Notes under the pieces: generated by a model
What the model was told of the DNA's origin: nothing
Database searches by the model: none
The model's input: only the letters and a program-made list of their open reading frames with translations
Translations under genes and position numbers: made by a program
In this document: positions 23,279 through 33,160 of the stretch, one piece after another
Layout: each line of letters opens with the position of its first letter
How positions within the stretch are numbered: position 1 is the first letter of the stretch
Virus record (IMG/VR): IMGVR_UViG_3300048798_000032
Coordinates: 39,429 to 103,428 of that record
Source: a virus
DNA: 64,000 bases
Direction: 5' to 3' (one strand)

Positions 23279-23387
23279 CCATCTTGCCGGGCAGTACAGC
23301 AAGCAAGACGCTTACGGAGCACTACAGGAAGCGGCATGACGGTTAATTGCGTTGCCCGATCAGCCCCGAAGATGGAGAGTCCTGAAC

Positions 23388-25487
23388 ATGGAAATGCTGA
23401 CCAAGCACCTGATGAACTGGGCGTCGATCCTGGAGCCGAACACTCTGGAGCAGGCGCGGCGCACCTCCGAGATGCCGTTCATCCATCCTTGGGTGGCATT
23501 GATGCCAGACGCCCATCTCGGCAAGGGCTCCACGGTCGGCTCCGTCATCCCCACCCTCGGCGCGATCATGCCCGCGGCGGTCGGGGTCGACATCGGCTGC
23601 GTAGACGCTCAGAGCGAGTACCTGTCACCGTCTGGCTGGCGCAAGATCAGTGAGTACCGCGGCGGTCCCGTCATGCAGTACGAACCGCTCACCGGACTAG
23701 CCCGGTTCGTAGAGCCGTCGGCCTACATCGTGAAGGCGTGCGAGGAGTTCTACCAGCTTAAGACCAAATACGGCATCGACCAGATGCTGTCCGCCGATCA
23801 TCGCGTCCTCTGCTGGAAGATCACGGGCCGCGCTAGGTGCCGGGTCATGATGGTGATCCCCGCCGCTGATTTCGCGGCTGAGCACGCTCGACTGAGGCAG
23901 GGATTCAAGGCGGAGTTCAAGACTACGTTCACGCCGGACTTGGATACCAAAGTCGATCTGAGTGATGCGCAGATTCGGGTGCAGGTCATGGCAAACGCCG
24001 ACAGCACCTTGAATCACGGGGCAGCCGTCCTTCATCTCCAGAAGGAACGCAAGATCACGCGCGCCCGGCAACTCCTCGCTGATGCCGGTATCGCCTGGAC
24101 AGAAAACGCCAACCGGGACGGCACCGCGACCATCCGGTTCCACGCGCCGATCGCGGAGAAGTCCTACGAGCCATTCTGGGAAGCGTCGGCCGCGCAACTT
24201 GCGGTGATCGCGGAGGAATGCTTGCTCTGGGATGGCAATCTGGATGACCGCTGCTTCTACACCAGAACCCGCGCCGAAGCCGACTTCATCCAGTACGCGT
24301 TCACGGCCTGCGGCTACCGCGCCGTGCTCCGCTCGGATGACCACTACCGGGATGGACAGCCCGACTACCGCGTGTTTGCCAACACCAACACCATGATCAG
24401 CATGAGTGGTGTTCCCAAAACCGAGATCACCACAGAGCCAAGCCCCGACGGCTACGCCTACTGTTTCACCGTCCCGTCGGGCTTCTGGGTGATGCGCAGG
24501 GGTGGCAACGTGGCCATGACCGGCAACTGCGGTATGCATGCCGTTCAGACGAGCCTGACTGCGGCCGACGTCCGCAAGCAGGGCGACCTGGCCGCGCTCC
24601 GTGAGGCGATCGAGGGCGCGATACCGCTGTCGGCAGGCAAGTACAACGAATCCGTCTACGACCCCGAGACCGACGAGCGCATAGCGGAGCTGGAGCAGAA
24701 AGACGGTGCAGCGAGCGCGGAGCAGATAGCGCCGAACTGGCGGCTTCAGCTCGGTTCCCTCGGTTCGGGTAACCACTTCATCGAGGTCAGTCTTGACGAG
24801 CATGGATCTGTGTGGCTGTTCCTGCACTCGGGTTCCCGTGGCGTTGGCAACAAGCTTGCCGTACGGCACATCAAGATCGCCCAGCAGCAGGCGAAGAAGT
24901 GGTGGATCGGCCTGCCTGACCCGGACTTGGCCTACCTCGTGGAAGGCACCGATGAGTTCTGGGCTTACATTCGCGACCTGCGGTGGGCACAGCATTTCGC
25001 TCTGCTGAACCGGCAGGAGATGATGCACCGCGTCATGCTCTGCGTGGATGCCTGGTACGGGCACCCGATCACCGGTCTCCAGGTAGTGCAGTGTCACCAC
25101 AACTACACCGAGCGCGAGAAGCATTTCGGCAAGGATGTCTGGCTCAGCCGTAAGGGCGCGATCGACGCGAGTGACGGCAAGCTCGGCCTCATCCCCGGCT
25201 CGATGGGCACGCGCTCCTATGTGGTCCGGGGGAAGGGCAACCGCCAGTCGCTCAACTCCTCGCCACACGGTGCCGGGCGCCAGCATTCACGTTCGGCCGC
25301 CCGCAGGACGTTCACCCGTGCCGAGCTGGACGCCGCGATGGAAGGTATCGAGTGGGGCCGCTCAGATGCGTTCCTGGACGAGATTCCCGGGGCCTACAAG
25401 GACGTTGACGTGGTGATGGCCGACGCCGCAGACCTCGTTGAGCCAATCCACACGCTGCGGCAGATCGTAAACGTGAAGGGCGATTGA
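23388..25487 (+). CDS. rtcB: RtcB RNA ligase containing an intein
   Basis: MPDAHLGKG, AVGVDIG/CG, LGSLGSGNHF, LHSGSRG, CHHNY, SRKGA, IPGSMG, HGAGR, DEIPGAYKD. Confidence 0.95.
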   Translation: MEMLTKHLMNWASILEPNTLEQARRTSEMPFIHPWVALMPDAHLGKGSTVGSVIPTLGAIMPAAVGVDIGCVDAQSEYLSPSGWRKISEYRGGPVMQYEPLTGLARFVEPSAYIVKACEEFYQLKTKYGIDQMLSADHRVLCWKITGRARCRVMMVIPAADFAAEHARLRQGFKAEFKTTFTPDLDTKVDLSDAQIRVQVMANADSTLNHGAAVLHLQKERKITRARQLLADAGIAWTENANRDGTATIRFHAPIAEKSYEPFWEASAAQLAVIAEECLLWDGNLDDRCFYTRTRAEADFIQYAFTACGYRAVLRSDDHYRDGQPDYRVFANTNTMISMSGVPKTEITTEPSPDGYAYCFTVPSGFWVMRRGGNVAMTGNCGMHAVQTSLTAADVRKQGDLAALREAIEGAIPLSAGKYNESVYDPETDERIAELEQKDGAASAEQIAPNWRLQLGSLGSGNHFIEVSLDEHGSVWLFLHSGSRGVGNKLAVRHIKIAQQQAKKWWIGLPDPDLAYLVEGTDEFWAYIRDLRWAQHFALLNRQEMMHRVMLCVDAWYGHPITGLQVVQCHHNYTEREKHFGKDVWLSRKGAIDASDGKLGLIPGSMGTRSYVVRGKGNRQSLNSSPHGAGRQHSRSAARRTFTRAELDAAMEGIEWGRSDAFLDEIPGAYKDVDVVMADAADLVEPIHTLRQIVNVKGD
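23598..24527 (+). mobile_element. intein (310 aa) with probable degenerate LAGLIDADG domain
   Basis: starts CVDAQSEYL, block B SADHRV, ends YCFTVPSGFWVMRRGGNVAMTGN before the extein Cys. Confidence 0.9.
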
Positions 25488-25599: not shown

Positions 25600-25673
25600 T
25601 GGGGTGTGGGGAAGTTTGGTATCCCGCGTGATTTGGGATCACGAGATCGCCGGTTCGACTCCGGTCACCCCGA
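25600..25673 (+). tRNA. tRNA-Pro(TGG), CCA not encoded
   Basis: TGGGGTG/CACCCCG acceptor stem, CGTGA-TTTGGGA-TCACG anticodon arm, GCCGG-TTCGACT-CCGGT T arm. Confidence 0.9.
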
Positions 25674-25717
25674 CGCATCAGCCGCTCGCCGCTGAGATTG
25701 TTATCCTGAAACCACAA

Positions 25718-25790
25718 TGCCGGGTCGGCTAATCAGGCAGGCCACGTGATTCTGGGTCACGGCGTTGGGGTTCGAATCCCTGCCCGGCAG
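25718..25790 (+). tRNA. tRNA-Gln(CTG), CCA not encoded
   Basis: TGCCGGG/CCCGGCA acceptor stem, CGTGA-TTCTGGG-TCACG anticodon arm, TTCGAAT T loop. Confidence 0.88.
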
Positions 25791-25791
25791 C

Positions 25792-31005: not shown

Positions 31006-31075
31006 GTTGCCCGGTGCGCAGGCAGCGGATACTTCTGGTGATGAAAATACCGCAGCCGTCTTGATCTCGGGCAGC
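31006..31075 (+). ncRNA. Y-RNA-like unit 1 (short loop cargo)
   Basis: GTTGCCCG-GTGCGCAGG..TACTTC..TTGATCT-CGGGCAGC closing stem. Confidence 0.7.
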
Positions 31076-31093
31076 ACAACTAAAGATGATCAC

Positions 31094-31137
31094 ACTCCCG
31101 GTGCGCACGTCACCCACGCCGACTTGATCTCGGGGGT
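31094..31137 (+). ncRNA. Y-RNA-like unit 2 (minimal or internally deleted)
   Basis: ACTCCCG-GTGCGCA..CTTGATCT-CGGGGGT; lacks TACTTC and cargo. Confidence 0.55.
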
Positions 31138-31157
31138 TCACAACTGAAGATGTTCCA

Positions 31158-31273
31158 CCCCTGGTGCGCAGGATGACGGCTACTTCATGGTTCGAATCCA
31201 CGCGCAGGCTCCGAAAGGCTCGCCTGTGTCGCCCAACTGGCAGGGCTACTCCGTCGCCGCTTGATCTCAGGGG
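31158..31273 (+). ncRNA. Y RNA unit 3, YrlA-type permuted tRNA mimic
   Basis: T arm TGG-TTCGAAT-CCA, closed acceptor-like stem CGCAGGC/GCCTGTG, D arm GCCC-AACTGGCA-GGGC, inside the conserved stem. Confidence 0.85.
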
Positions 31274-31294
31274 CTCATAACTGAATACGTCGCA

Positions 31295-31415
31295 CCTCCC
31301 GGTGCGAAGGTGAACGGGTACTTCTTGCCAGGGCGCAAGTCCAAAGATCGGCCAGCTCAAGAAACTGGCACCCACCTTCGGGTGGTCACCCGGTCGCTGC
31401 CATGATCTCGGGAGG
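31295..31415 (+). ncRNA. Y-RNA-like unit 4 (three-hairpin cargo)
   Basis: CCTCCCG/CGGGAGG stem; GCAA tetraloop, GCCAG-CTCAAGAAA-CTGGC and C(TTCG)G hairpins. Confidence 0.75.
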
Positions 31416-31428
31416 AGCAACGTCATAG

Positions 31429-31543
31429 CGTGCCCGGTGCGCAGGCGAGGGTTACTTCCTGACTGTTAATCAGGGTCTGACGGTTCGATTCCGTCGCAGG
31501 GTGGCCCCGTCCCGTACCCCTCACCGACTTGATCTCGGGCACG
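31429..31543 (+). ncRNA. Y-RNA-like unit 5 with tRNA-Asn(GTT) anticodon arm and T arm
   Basis: CCTGA-CTGTTAA-TCAGG, 4-nt variable loop, GACGG-TTCGATT-CCGTC; CGTGCCCG/CGGGCACG stem. Confidence 0.8.
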
Positions 31544-31551
31544 ACTAAACG

Positions 31552-31581
31552 AAGCTCCTCCCGCATGCGAGAGGAGCTTTT
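31552..31581 (+). terminator. terminator-like hairpin that overlaps the Ro60 RBS
   Basis: AAGCTCCTC..GAGGAGCTT then TT, directly before GTG 31583. Confidence 0.6.
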
Positions 31582-31582
31582 C

Positions 31583-33160
31583 GTGTCCCGCTTCAATACC
31601 TCCACGGCGCGAGTGCAGCCGCGCAGCCCGGTCACGTCGGAGACTGCCCCGTCTGGCCTGACCCACGAGGGCGCGCCGGGTTACGCCCGCGAAGCCAAGT
31701 CGGAACTTTTCTTGCTCGCGGTCGCGCACATGGGCGACGGGTCGTTCTACGAGTCCGCACCCGAACGCGACCGGCGGTTCTGTGCCCTCGTCCACGGTGT
31801 CGCGATGAACGATCCCGAGTGGATCGGCCAGTTCATCCCGTGGCTCCGCAACGAGGCCAACATGCGCACGGTGTCGGTGGTCGCGGCGGCCGAGGCGGCA
31901 TGGGCACTCCTGACGGACGAGAAGCCGGGCGGCCGGCAAGTCATCGCGTCCGCACTCCAGCGCGCCGACGAGCCGGGCGAACTGCTCGCCTACTGGCACT
32001 CCCGTCACGGCCGGGTGGTGCCGAAGCCGGTCAAGCGCGGTCTCGCCGACGCGATTCAGCGGCTCTACACGGAGTACGTGCTGATGAAATATGACACGGC
32101 CAGCCACGGTTACCGGTTCGCCGACGTGATCGAGCTCGTCCACCCGGTCGCGGCCGAGGCGTGGCGGGGCGACCTGTTCAAGTACGCGATCGACCGGCGC
32201 CACAACCGTGACGGCGACGCTCCCGAGTCGCTGCGCATGGTGCGCGCGAACGCGGCCCTGCGCAGGATCGCCGCCAGCACCCCGGCAACTCTGCTGGACG
32301 CCGAGGCACTCAAGGCCGCGGGTATGACGTGGGAGGACGCACTGTTGCTCGCGGGTGGCAGTGTGAGCAAGCGGGACCTGTGGACGGCCATGATCCCGTC
32401 GATGGGCATCTTCGCCCTGGTGCGGAACCTGCGCAACTTCGATGAGGCAGGCGTCACCGACGACACGGCGGCCCAGGTCACGGCAAAGCTCACGGACGCC
32501 GAGGTCATTGCCAAGTCGCGGATGTTCCCGTTCCGGTTCCTCGCCGCCTACCGGGCCGCGCCGTCACTGAGGTGGTCGTGGCCGCTGGAGAAGGCGCTCA
32601 ACCTGTCCCTGGCCAACGTGCCCGCACTCAGGGGGCGCACGCTCATCCTGGTGGACCGCTCGGGTTCCATGTTCGACACCGTGTCCGCCAAGTCTGGGCT
32701 GAACCGCGCCGACACGGCGGCCCTGTTCGGGTCCGCGCTGACCCGGCGTAGCGACCACGCCGACCTCGTGGAGTTCGGCACCGGCAGCCAGATGGTCCTG
32801 TCCACCGACGCGGCCCACGCGTACGGTCACGCCGAGTCGGTGCTGAAGATGGTCAGCCGGTTCGGCAGCATGGGGGGCACCAACACCGCCGAGGCCGTGC
32901 GGCGCTGGTACAGCGGGCACGACCGGGTAGTCATCCTCACCGACGAGCAGGCGTGGGGCGGCTTCAGTGGCAGCAACCCGACCATGCAGGTTCCCTCGTC
33001 GGTGCCGGTCTACACCTGGAACCTTGCGGGCTACCAGTACGGCCACGGGCCCTCGGGTGGGCAGAACCGGCATACGTTCGGGGGGCTGGAAGACAGCGCG
33101 TTCAAGATGATTCCCGCACTTGAAGCCGCGCACGACGCGCACTGGCCGTGGGAGGACTGA
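31583..33160 (+). CDS. rsr: Ro60/TROVE-domain RNA-binding protein (Rsr) with vWA domain
   Basis: THEGAPGY..KSELFLLAV..FYES, KYD..DVIELVHP, MTWE, ALVRNLRN, SRMFPFRF, vWA DRSGSM, GGT, ILTDEQ. Confidence 0.93.
   Translation: MSRFNTSTARVQPRSPVTSETAPSGLTHEGAPGYAREAKSELFLLAVAHMGDGSFYESAPERDRRFCALVHGVAMNDPEWIGQFIPWLRNEANMRTVSVVAAAEAAWALLTDEKPGGRQVIASALQRADEPGELLAYWHSRHGRVVPKPVKRGLADAIQRLYTEYVLMKYDTASHGYRFADVIELVHPVAAEAWRGDLFKYAIDRRHNRDGDAPESLRMVRANAALRRIAASTPATLLDAEALKAAGMTWEDALLLAGGSVSKRDLWTAMIPSMGIFALVRNLRNFDEAGVTDDTAAQVTAKLTDAEVIAKSRMFPFRFLAAYRAAPSLRWSWPLEKALNLSLANVPALRGRTLILVDRSGSMFDTVSAKSGLNRADTAALFGSALTRRSDHADLVEFGTGSQMVLSTDAAHAYGHAESVLKMVSRFGSMGGTNTAEAVRRWYSGHDRVVILTDEQAWGGFSGSNPTMQVPSSVPVYTWNLAGYQYGHGPSGGQNRHTFGGLEDSAFKMIPALEAAHDAHWPWED

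What the first reader, a model, noticed from the sequence alone, without database searches (positions are those of the whole stretch)
31429..31543. Y-RNA scaffold displaying an intact tRNA-Asn(GUU) anticodon arm
Seen: CCTGA-CTGTTAA-TCAGG (anticodon GTT at 31465-31467), a 4-nt variable loop and a perfect T arm, in normal tRNA order, with no D arm or acceptor end. Known: canonical YrlA lacks an anticodon loop because the Ro stem replaces it. Inference: a captured tRNA fragment that acts as a decoy for anticodon nucleases or modification enzymes, and is repairable by the phage RtcB. Unit 4's GCCAG-CTCAAGAAA-CTGGC may be a weaker Leu(CAA)-like mimic.
Basis: partly seen in the sequence, partly recalled or inferred. 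Interest (0 to 1): 0.8.

Follow-up and report, generated by a model that had tools for sequence, protein, structure and literature searches.

The report
Y RNA displaying an anticodon-arm mimic
The last of five small Ro60-partner RNAs (Y RNAs) in this phage carries a faithful copy of a tRNA anticodon arm and T arm; the same arm, with more than twenty different 'anticodons', recurs in related phages and actinobacteria, so it is an inherited and selected feature of this RNA family and not a stolen piece of tRNA.

Summary
Unit 5 (31429-31543, +) of a five-unit Y-RNA array upstream of the phage Ro60 gene holds a 5-bp stem, the loop CUGUUAA (GUU at 31465-31467), a 4-nt variable loop and a perfect T arm. 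It has no D arm, and only a 3-bp stub where the acceptor stem should be.

It is not a tRNA gene: the Rfam tRNA score is 22.9 bits against a threshold of 29. It is not a recent capture either, because candidate host and phage tRNA-Asn share only the 7-nt loop.

It is a trimmed member of the YrlA class of Y RNAs. The hairpin is the stem-loop that Chen et al. (2014) labelled 'V' (variable arm). In about 160 homologous units the hairpin behaves like a true anticodon arm:
- the stem covaries;
- U33 and a purine at 37 are each kept in 93%;
- G36 is always coupled to G37;
- the next 4-5 nt form a canonical variable loop whose last base covaries with D-loop position 15;
- more than 20 different triplets occur.

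Annotation tools, and two GenBank phage records, call such units tRNAs.

Function is inferred. Most likely the arm presents an anticodon loop to a tRNA-binding factor while docked on Ro60. The decoy idea is plausible but untested. The unit-4 'Leu mimic' is not supported. I found no published description of the anticodon-like nature of this arm.

The parts
31429..31543 (+). Y-RNA unit 5, the Ro60-proximal unit; closing stem 31429-31437 with 31534-31543
   Evidence: Shares its 5' and 3' motifs with units 1-4 and with units upstream of Ro60 in 25 other loci. Consensus fold with its orthologues.
31436..31445 (+). Conserved 5' Y motif GGUGCGCAGG, the presumed Ro60-contact strand
   Evidence: Repeat family D4 within the array. 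The core GGUGCG heads the Y units collected in other loci, although it was also the search key. Equated with the GNCGAA-type motif of Chen 2014 by inference only.
31444..31451 (+). Distal Y stem, 5' strand; pairs with 31518-31525
   Evidence: RNAalifold consensus of the window, L006 and L099.
31452..31458 (+). Conserved UUACUUC motif, the YUAY motif of YrlA extended by UUC
   Evidence: Present in units 1, 3, 4 and 5 (family D6). The ACUUC core was part of the search pattern, but the full motif recurs in the Ro-anchored loci found independently. The YUAY motif is described in PMC4201824.
31458..31474 (+). Anticodon-arm mimic: 5-bp stem and 7-nt loop CUGUUAA, triplet GUU at 31465-31467
   Evidence: Covariation and loop statistics in homologues.
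31475..31478 (+). 4-nt variable-loop equivalent, GUCU
   Evidence: Homologues have 4 or 5 nt here. The 5-nt form is N-G-G-U-Y, and its last base covaries with D-loop position 15 in full-length relatives.
31479..31495 (+). T arm: 5-bp stem and loop UUCGAUU
   Evidence: This helix is 98.8% paired in homologues, with four covarying pairs.
31499..31508 (+). Mini hairpin GGG-UGGC-CCC in place of the acceptor-like stem; the D arm is absent
   Evidence: Also present in the orthologues L006 and L099. Full-length relatives have an acceptor-like hairpin and a D arm here.
31528..31540 (+). Conserved 3' Y motif CUUGAUCUCGGGC
   Evidence: Repeat families D1-D3 and homologues.
31008..31417 (+). Y-RNA units 1-4: about 31008-31076, 31095-31139, 31158-31276 (canonical YrlA-like, with T arm, acceptor-like hairpin and D arm) and 31296-31417
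   Evidence: (unit 3 scores 20.5 bits on RF02553). RNA-library contigs cover 31012-31316 and 31017-31270.
31553..31582 (+). Hairpin plus U tract between unit 5 and the Ro60 start codon; its 3' arm contains the GGAG ribosome-binding site
   Evidence: Sequence. The same hairpin, with different stem sequences, is present in L005-L011. It was not called by the terminator scan.
31583..33160 (+). Ro60/Rsr orthologue (TROVE and vWA domains)
   Evidence: Pfam TROVE 2.4e-14 and VWA_2 1.1e-05. Homologues in phages and actinobacteria.
23352..25487 (+). RtcB RNA ligase with an insertion of about 330 residues; context only
   Evidence: Pfam RtcB 2e-112 in two stretches.

Best explanation
Unit 5 is a Ro60-partner Y RNA of the YrlA lineage. 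Its effector module has been trimmed to the 3' two-thirds of a tRNA: anticodon arm, variable loop and T arm, equivalent to tRNA positions 27-65.

The anticodon-like hairpin is the family's inherited 'V' stem-loop, not an insert. Across the family it is kept under the same sequence rules as real anticodon loops, while the triplet changes between lineages.

Most likely mechanism (inferred). The closing stem docks the RNA on phage Ro60. The exposed Asn-type anticodon loop and T arm then bind a protein that normally recognises tRNA anticodon loops: a host anticodon nuclease or toxin, a loop-modifying enzyme, or a synthetase. The RNA would compete with the real tRNA for that protein, or tether it to Ro60.

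Shown here: the anatomy, homology, covariation, loop rules and position next to Ro60, and that neighbouring units of the array occur in RNA libraries.

Inferred: Ro60 binding, folding in vivo, expression of unit 5 itself, and the partner.
For: Anatomy.

Same strand as, and 40 nt upstream of, a TROVE+vWA gene.

Five units share the stem motifs.

Orthologues L006 and L099 keep the same architecture, with compensatory changes in the anticodon-like stem and GUU replaced by GCU.

Family level:
- Of 158 Y units with a T arm, 82 place it 18-19 nt after ACUUC.
- In 73 unique hairpins, U33 93%, purine-37 93%, A38 88%, C32 77%.
- The 5-nt variable loop is N-G-G-U-Y.
- Unselected units pair at 30-40 and 31-39 in 77% and 83%, against 38% and 42% in shuffles; formal count.
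- G36 goes with G37 in 12/0/0/45 unique arms, and non-C32 goes with G36 in 11/1/1/44, as in real tRNAs of the same contigs (17/3/4/54).
- 35 of 41 loops equal a real tRNA loop with the same anticodon.
- Levitt pair 15-48: G-C in 37, A-U in 21, G-U in 1 of 59 full-length units.
- The anticodon-bearing unit is the Ro60-proximal one in 18 of 25 loci.
- One clade keeps GCU while its acceptor-like hairpin takes at least six unrelated sequences, so the arm is more constrained than the acceptor-like stem.

Metatranscriptome contigs match units 1-3 exactly.

Literature:
- YrlA binds Rsr and is handled by tRNA enzymes (PMC4201824).
- YrlA was suggested as a possible competitive inhibitor of an anticodon nuclease (PMC7790460).
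Against: - No direct evidence that unit 5 is transcribed, folds this way or binds Ro60.
- No partner protein is identified.
- Without a D arm the T loop cannot form the normal tRNA elbow, so proteins that read the whole L shape may not accept it.
- Triplets that real bacterial tRNAs do not use (AUU, ACU, AUC) occur in relatives, so exact anticodon identity is not always preserved.
- Much of the triplet variation sits at positions 34-35 with U36 fixed, which would also fit a generic loop requirement.
- The sequences are related, so the Fisher tests overstate independence.
- The Y triplet shows no link to the tRNA genes carried in the same locus, though that sample is too small to decide.
Confidence: 0.5

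Rival explanations
1. Structural relic. The hairpin is only the variable-arm-like 'V' stem-loop inherited from the tRNA ancestor of YrlA (the dimeric-tRNA origin model). It is kept because a U-turn loop is a stable cap that helps the module fold. No factor reads the triplet, and the 'anticodons' drift.
For: - Chen 2014 (PMC4201824) treat it as a less conserved V arm.
- The dimeric-tRNA origin model is cited in bioRxiv 10.1101/312249.
- Non-natural triplets AUU, ACU and AUC occur.
- Within the UUCCA/UGGGG stem class only positions 34-35 vary.
- Salmonella YrlA functions without the hairpin.
Against: - Variable arms of class II tRNAs have short loops and abut the T stem (general tRNA knowledge). 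Here the loop is 7 nt and a canonical 4-5-nt variable loop follows.
- The joint 32/36/37 coupling mirrors real tRNAs and recurs in several stem classes, which drift from one ancestor does not readily explain.
- The arm is kept unchanged while the acceptor-like hairpin is replaced repeatedly.
- The window's unit has lost the D and acceptor arms but kept this arm intact.
Confidence: 0.27
2. The arm is a decoy substrate for a host anticodon nuclease aimed at tRNA-Asn. It is cleaved in place of the tRNA and resealed by the phage RtcB.
For: - RtcB, a SLOG protein and a MazG-like protein lie 6-10 kb upstream.
- Ro60, Y RNAs and RtcB are operonic in Salmonella and respond to tRNA cleavage (PMC7790460).
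- The loop is identical to that of real tRNA-Asn.
- Triplets switch between related phages, as expected in an arms race.
Against: - No nuclease is identified.
- RtcB is not adjacent to the array; an integrase module lies between them.
- Salmonella YrlA is reported not to be a substrate of the anticodon nuclease (PMC7790460).
- Nothing here shows cleavage or ligation.
Confidence: 0.15
3. A recently captured fragment of a host or phage tRNA-Asn gene, inserted into a Y-RNA scaffold.
For: The loop CUGUUAA is identical to real tRNA-Asn loops. ARAGORN calls it tRNA-Asn.
Against: - The stem, variable loop and T arm differ from tRNA-Asn of Winogradskya, Actinoplanes, Dactylosporangium, Streptosporangium and Actinocorallia and from five phage tRNA-Asn genes.
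- The same positions are orthologous to L006 and L099 units that carry GCU.
- The phage record has no tRNA-Asn of its own.
Confidence: 0.03
4. A genuine but unusual tRNA-Asn gene, or a decayed one, as gene finders report.
For: The ARAGORN call. GenBank records annotate equivalent units as tRNA-Arg in Gordonia phage VanLee and Streptomyces phage GiJojo.
Against: - There is no acceptor stem, CCA site or D arm.
- The Rfam tRNA score is 22.9 bits, below 29.
- The 5' 'acceptor/D' part of the call is the conserved Y-stem strand shared by all five units.
- ARAGORN makes the same call on 59 Y units.
Confidence: 0.02

Closest known systems
YrlA (Y RNA-like A; Rfam RF02553), including Mycobacterium smegmatis YrlA and mycobacteriophage YrlAs (Chen et al. 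2014, PMC4201824; structure of the Salmonella domain in bioRxiv 10.1101/312249)
   Same: Encoded beside Ro60 on the same strand. The ends pair into a stem with a conserved 5' motif. It has the YUAY motif, a tRNA-like T arm, and a 'V' stem-loop upstream of the T arm. The reverse complement of the published M. smegmatis YrlA 5' probe reads CCA-CUUCUAA-UGG followed by UGGUC. By my reading this is the same anticodon-like hairpin plus variable loop.
   Different: Unit 5 lacks the D arm, and its acceptor-like stem is a 3-bp stub. It does not score on RF02553. Published work treats the Ro60 stem as the anticodon-stem equivalent and the hairpin as a variable arm. The data here show the hairpin has anticodon-arm properties, so full-length relatives are whole permuted tRNAs with the Ro60 stem attached between the D arm and the anticodon arm.
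Deinococcus radiodurans Yrn1 (Chen et al. 2014)
   Same: A Y RNA that was modelled with a T arm and a potential 'anticodon arm' with a 5-bp stem.
   Different: The Yrn1 loop is 6 nt, it has no variable region, and its orientation differs. Here the loop is 7 nt with U33 and purine-37, followed by a canonical variable loop.
Canonical tRNA-Asn(GUU) (Rfam RF00005)
   Same: The anticodon loop is identical. It also has a 5-bp anticodon stem, a 4-nt variable loop and a consensus T arm, in tRNA order.
   Different: There is no acceptor stem and no D arm. It is embedded in a Ro60-binding stem, scores below the Rfam threshold, and its stems are unrelated to candidate host tRNA-Asn.
Other tRNA mimics with anticodon-domain mimicry (TYMV tRNA-like structure, tmRNA-SmpB), as compared in bioRxiv 10.1101/312249
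   Same: A non-tRNA that imitates parts of tRNA in order to engage tRNA-binding proteins.
   Different: Those have a free CCA end and are aminoacylated. This one has no acceptor end and is tied to Ro60.

Membership tests
YrlA-class Y RNA (RF02553; Chen 2014) | Encoded within 4 kb of a Ro60/TROVE gene, on the same strand | tested here: met
   The unit ends 40 nt upstream of the TROVE+vWA gene at 31583-33160.
YrlA-class Y RNA (RF02553; Chen 2014) | 5' and 3' ends pair into a stem that carries the conserved Ro60-contact motif | tested here: met
   The stem and the GGUGCG(C/A)A and UGAUCUCGGG motifs are shared by all five units and by homologues. Ro60 binding itself cannot be tested here.
YrlA-class Y RNA (RF02553; Chen 2014) | tRNA-like T stem-loop | tested here: met
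   31479-31495, loop UUCGAUU.
YrlA-class Y RNA (RF02553; Chen 2014) | tRNA-like D stem-loop | tested here: not met
   No D arm after the T arm in unit 5, L006 or L099. It is present in unit 3 and in most homologues.
YrlA-class Y RNA (RF02553; Chen 2014) | [quoted passage not shown] | tested here: inconclusive
   Only a 3-bp GGG/CCC hairpin at 31499-31508.
YrlA-class Y RNA (RF02553; Chen 2014) | Rfam gathering score of 69 bits | tested here: not met
   Unit 5 has no RF02553 hit at E<=10. Unit 3 scores 20.5 bits. The Rfam model does not capture these actinophage units.
YrlA 'V' stem-loop (Chen 2014) | A stem-loop between the YUAY motif and the T arm | tested here: met
   31458-31474 follows UUAC and precedes the T arm. 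The same position is occupied in homologues.
tRNA gene (RF00005) | 7-bp acceptor stem with a 3' end that can carry CCA | tested here: not met
   The Rfam alignment leaves the acceptor almost unpaired. The ARAGORN 'acceptor' is the Y-stem strand.
tRNA gene (RF00005) | D arm | tested here: not met
tRNA gene (RF00005) | Anticodon arm, variable loop and T arm in canonical order and size | tested here: met
tRNA gene (RF00005) | Rfam gathering score of 29 bits | tested here: not met
   22.9 bits.
Anticodon-nuclease decoy (no curated family) | Cleaved or bound by an anticodon nuclease in competition with its tRNA target | not testable with these tools
   Needs biochemical assays. Only the loop identity with tRNA-Asn is shown.

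The most novel reading that the evidence does not exclude
Actinobacterial and actinophage YrlA-class Y RNAs are complete, permuted tRNAs that keep a sequence-specific anticodon arm. Each Ro60 particle would then imitate one particular tRNA species (Asn in this phage). It would titrate, sense or recruit an anticodon-specific factor, such as a tRNA-cleaving toxin or defence nuclease, with triplet switching between phages recording an arms race. The trimmed anticodon-plus-T-arm unit in this window would be the minimal form of such a decoy.
Probability: 0.2. Interest if true: 0.8.

Novelty: new variant of a known kind. Interest (0 to 1): 0.6.

Why it matters
The effector that YrlA-type Y RNAs recruit is still unknown. 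Published models say these RNAs imitate the D, T and acceptor parts of tRNA and lack an anticodon loop.

If the 'V' arm is a maintained anticodon-arm mimic that follows tRNA-specific loop rules, the search for partners shifts toward anticodon-loop readers: tRNA-cleaving toxins, position-37 or position-34 modification enzymes, and synthetases. Clear mutational tests follow from that. The result also fits the proposal that YrlA arose from a tRNA dimer.

Practically, it shows that gene finders and at least two GenBank actinophage records annotate these Y RNAs as tRNA genes, which inflates phage tRNA counts.

Tried and rejected
- DNA search of the array against the phage collection found nothing.
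- The single-sequence minimum-free-energy fold of unit 5 pairs GGGUUACUU with GGGUGGCCC. That pairing is not conserved in L006, so I rejected it in favour of the consensus fold.
- The first MAFFT alignment, A1, mis-registered units with 4-nt variable loops. I replaced it with the gapless set A2.
- Does the Y triplet match a tRNA gene in the same locus? 0 of 14 loci, with 0.5 expected by shuffling. The sample is too small to mean anything.
- RNA-library contigs did not cover unit 5. These are contigs, so no conclusion is drawn about its expression.
- The promoter scan found no sigma-70-type site, and the terminator scan did not call the hairpin before Ro60.
- Reviews by Sim and Wolin (2018, 2020) and Boccitto and Wolin (2019) are not held in the library. 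I therefore could not check whether they already remark on an anticodon-like V arm.
- Unit 4 as a Leu mimic: rejected.
- Recent capture from tRNA-Asn: rejected.
- True tRNA gene: rejected.

Full report
**What is there.** The window is part of a 103-kb IMG/VR virus record judged 95% complete. Positions 31008-31544 on the + strand hold five tandem units. Each opens with CC(C/U)GGUGCG(C/A)A and closes with UGAUCUC(G/A)GG. Forty bases downstream starts a gene with TROVE and vWA domains, a Ro60/Rsr orthologue (31583-33160). The units are therefore Y-RNA-like partners of Ro60.

Unit 3 is a recognisable YrlA, with a T arm, an acceptor-like hairpin and a D arm. It scores 20.5 bits on RF02553, far below that family's threshold but with the right architecture. 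Unit 5 is the finding.

Unit 5 contains the stem CCUGA/UCAGG (31458-62 with 31470-74), the loop CUGUUAA (31463-69, GUU at 31465-67), GUCU (31475-78) and the T arm GACGG-UUCGAUU-CCGUC (31479-95). ARAGORN reports 'tRNA-Asn(gtt)' at 31426-31506 with the anticodon at an abnormal position. The Rfam tRNA model aligns only the anticodon arm, variable loop and T arm, and gives 22.9 bits against a threshold of 29. After the T arm there is no D arm. In place of an acceptor stem there is a 3-bp hairpin, GGG-UGGC-CCC. Both main hairpins appear in the single-sequence fold.

**Relatives.** Ro60 homologues brought in 19 viral loci and 22 actinobacterial loci from Micromonosporaceae, Streptosporangiales, Streptomyces and Frankia. 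A motif scan of viral contigs added about 120 more stretches. In 19 of 25 Ro60-anchored loci my strict criteria find a unit with a hairpin in the same place. In 18 of them it is the unit next to Ro60.

The two closest architectural matches are L006 (Ro60 68% identical) and L099. Both have the same trimmed design as the window. Their consensus fold recovers the Y stems, the anticodon-like hairpin with two compensatory pairs, the T arm and the mini hairpin. Their triplet is GCU instead of GUU. Most other relatives are full length: hairpin, 4-5-nt linker, T arm, acceptor-like hairpin, D arm.

**The hairpin behaves like an anticodon arm.**
- Of 158 Y units with a T arm, 82 place it 18-19 nt after the conserved ACUUC.
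- In 73 unique hairpins, position 33 is U in 93%, 37 is a purine in 93%, 38 is A in 88% and 32 is C in 77%.
- The following 5 nt read N-G-G-U-Y, the usual class I variable loop.
- In an unselected, fixed-register set, the two free stem pairs are formed in 77% and 83% of units, against 38% and 42% after shuffling.
- The formal count on alignment A2 gives 85.7% pairing for this helix, with 23 and 16 double-sided changes. Shuffled and slid controls are far lower.
- In 59 full-length units the last linker base covaries with D-loop position 15: G-C in 37, A-U in 21, G-U in 1. The linker is therefore a working variable loop, and the hairpin sits exactly where an anticodon arm meets it.
- At least 23 different triplets occur. 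GUU, GCU, UGG, CUU and CUG are the most frequent.
- G36 is always followed by G37 and otherwise never (12/0/0/45 unique arms). G36 loops also avoid C32 (11/1/1/44). Real tRNAs in the same contigs show the same couplings (17/3/4/54).
- 35 of 41 loops are identical to a real tRNA loop with the same anticodon.

The sequences are related, so these tests overstate independence. Even so, both loop types recur within several different stem classes.

**It is not a capture and not a tRNA.** tRNA-Asn of five candidate host genera has an unrelated anticodon stem, variable loop and T stem. So do five phage tRNA-Asn genes. The phage record has no tRNA-Asn of its own. ARAGORN Y units as tRNAs by using the Y-stem strand as a false 5' half. 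The same error is in GenBank: gene 125 'tRNA-Arg(tct)' of Gordonia phage VanLee and gene 29 'tRNA-Arg(cct)' of Streptomyces phage GiJojo are Y units upstream of Ro60.

**Relation to the literature.** Chen et al. 2014 (PMC4201824) describe YrlA as mimicking the D, T and acceptor parts of tRNA. They note a fourth, less conserved 'V' stem-loop upstream of the T arm, read as a variable arm, with the YUAY motif before it. That is this hairpin.

Their M. smegmatis YrlA 5' probe, reverse-complemented, reads CCA-CUUCUAA-UGG followed by UGGUC. By my reading this is the same anticodon-like loop and variable loop. The Salmonella structure paper states that YrlA lacks the anticodon loop. It also cites a proposal that YrlA arose from a tRNA dimer (10.1101/312249); a retained anticodon arm from the first tRNA fits that model. 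Hughes et al. 2020 (PMC7790460) raise the possibility that the tRNA-like domain competitively inhibits an anticodon nuclease.

I found no paper that describes the V arm as an anticodon-arm mimic. Three relevant reviews were not available to me.

**Expression.** Contigs from two peat metatranscriptome studies match 31012-31316 and 31017-31270 without a difference. One is bounded by adaptor sequence and one has depth 167, while the Ro60 gene is barely covered. So units 1-3 occur in RNA libraries. Nothing can be said about unit 5. The DNA run that holds the whole stretch is probably the source sample.

**Mechanism.** Shown: a conserved, covarying tRNA-like module beside Ro60, with the anticodon arm under stronger constraint than the acceptor-like stem. 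Inferred: the stem docks on Ro60 and the exposed anticodon loop and T arm engage a protein that reads tRNA anticodon loops, as a competitor or a tether. RtcB (with an insertion of about 330 residues), a SLOG protein and a MazG-like protein lie 6-10 kb upstream. That context is compatible with an RNA-damage theme but proves nothing.

The main rival is that the arm is a structural relic with only generic loop constraints. Non-natural triplets, and variation concentrated at positions 34-35, speak for that view. The 32/36/37 coupling, and the retention of this arm in a unit that lost its D and acceptor arms, speak against it.

**Unit 4.** Its middle hairpin has a 9-nt loop here and an 8-nt loop of different sequence in the two homologues found. 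It is not anticodon-like.

**Verdict.** This is a new, trimmed variant of a known RNA class. The family-wide anticodon-arm property appears to be undescribed and can be tested directly.

Noticed in passing
window 31553-31582: A hairpin followed by UUUU sits between unit 5 and the Ro60 start codon. Its 3' arm contains the GGAG ribosome-binding site. The same hairpin, with different stem sequences, precedes Ro60 in L005-L011. It could end the Y-RNA transcript, gate Ro60 translation, or both.
   Followed up: partly
window 31012-31316: Contigs from two peat metatranscriptome studies match Y units 1-3 exactly. One has depth 167 over 31107-31270 and one is flanked by adaptor sequence at 31012 and 31316. 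One contig switches at 31107 into a different, related Y unit.
   Followed up: partly
L175:904-975 (Gordonia phage VanLee, NC_073474.1) and L174:969-1043 (Streptomyces phage GiJojo, PP725410.1): Genes annotated as tRNA-Arg(tct) and tRNA-Arg(cct) directly upstream of 'Ro-like RNA binding protein' are YrlA-type Y units (Y-stem motif, UUACUUC, hairpin, T arm, acceptor-like hairpin, D arm). These are probable mis-annotations.
   Followed up: yes
window 23352-25487: RtcB matches its Pfam profile in two stretches separated by about 330 residues, which looks like an intein or other insertion. tRNA-Pro and tRNA-Gln follow at 25600-25791.
   Followed up: no
many loci, e.g. L010:2525-2665, L011:2004-2144: A second class of Y units has, in place of the anticodon-like hairpin, a shorter element with a conserved GGAAC 17 nt before the T arm. 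Short Y units share UACUUCUUUGG. Neither class is explained.
   Followed up: no
window 31296-31417 (unit 4); L005:2681-2803; L010:2686-2811: Unit 4 is a separate conserved Y-RNA type with three hairpins (CCAGGGCGCAAG..., GGCCAG...CUGGC, CCCACC...GGGUGG). It was found in only three loci, and its module resembles no tRNA part.
   Followed up: partly
G000:C1:3540-3639 (outside the window): A 100-nt match to the tRNA model (32.4 bits), unusually long. It may relate to the tRNA-like separators noted by an earlier report on this genome.
   Followed up: no
window 31499-31508; L006 and L099 equivalents: The mini hairpin that replaces the acceptor and D arms always has a tetraloop with a central GG (UGGC, CGGC, UGGG). 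It might stand in for D-loop G18-G19 in contacting the T loop. This is speculation.
   Followed up: no
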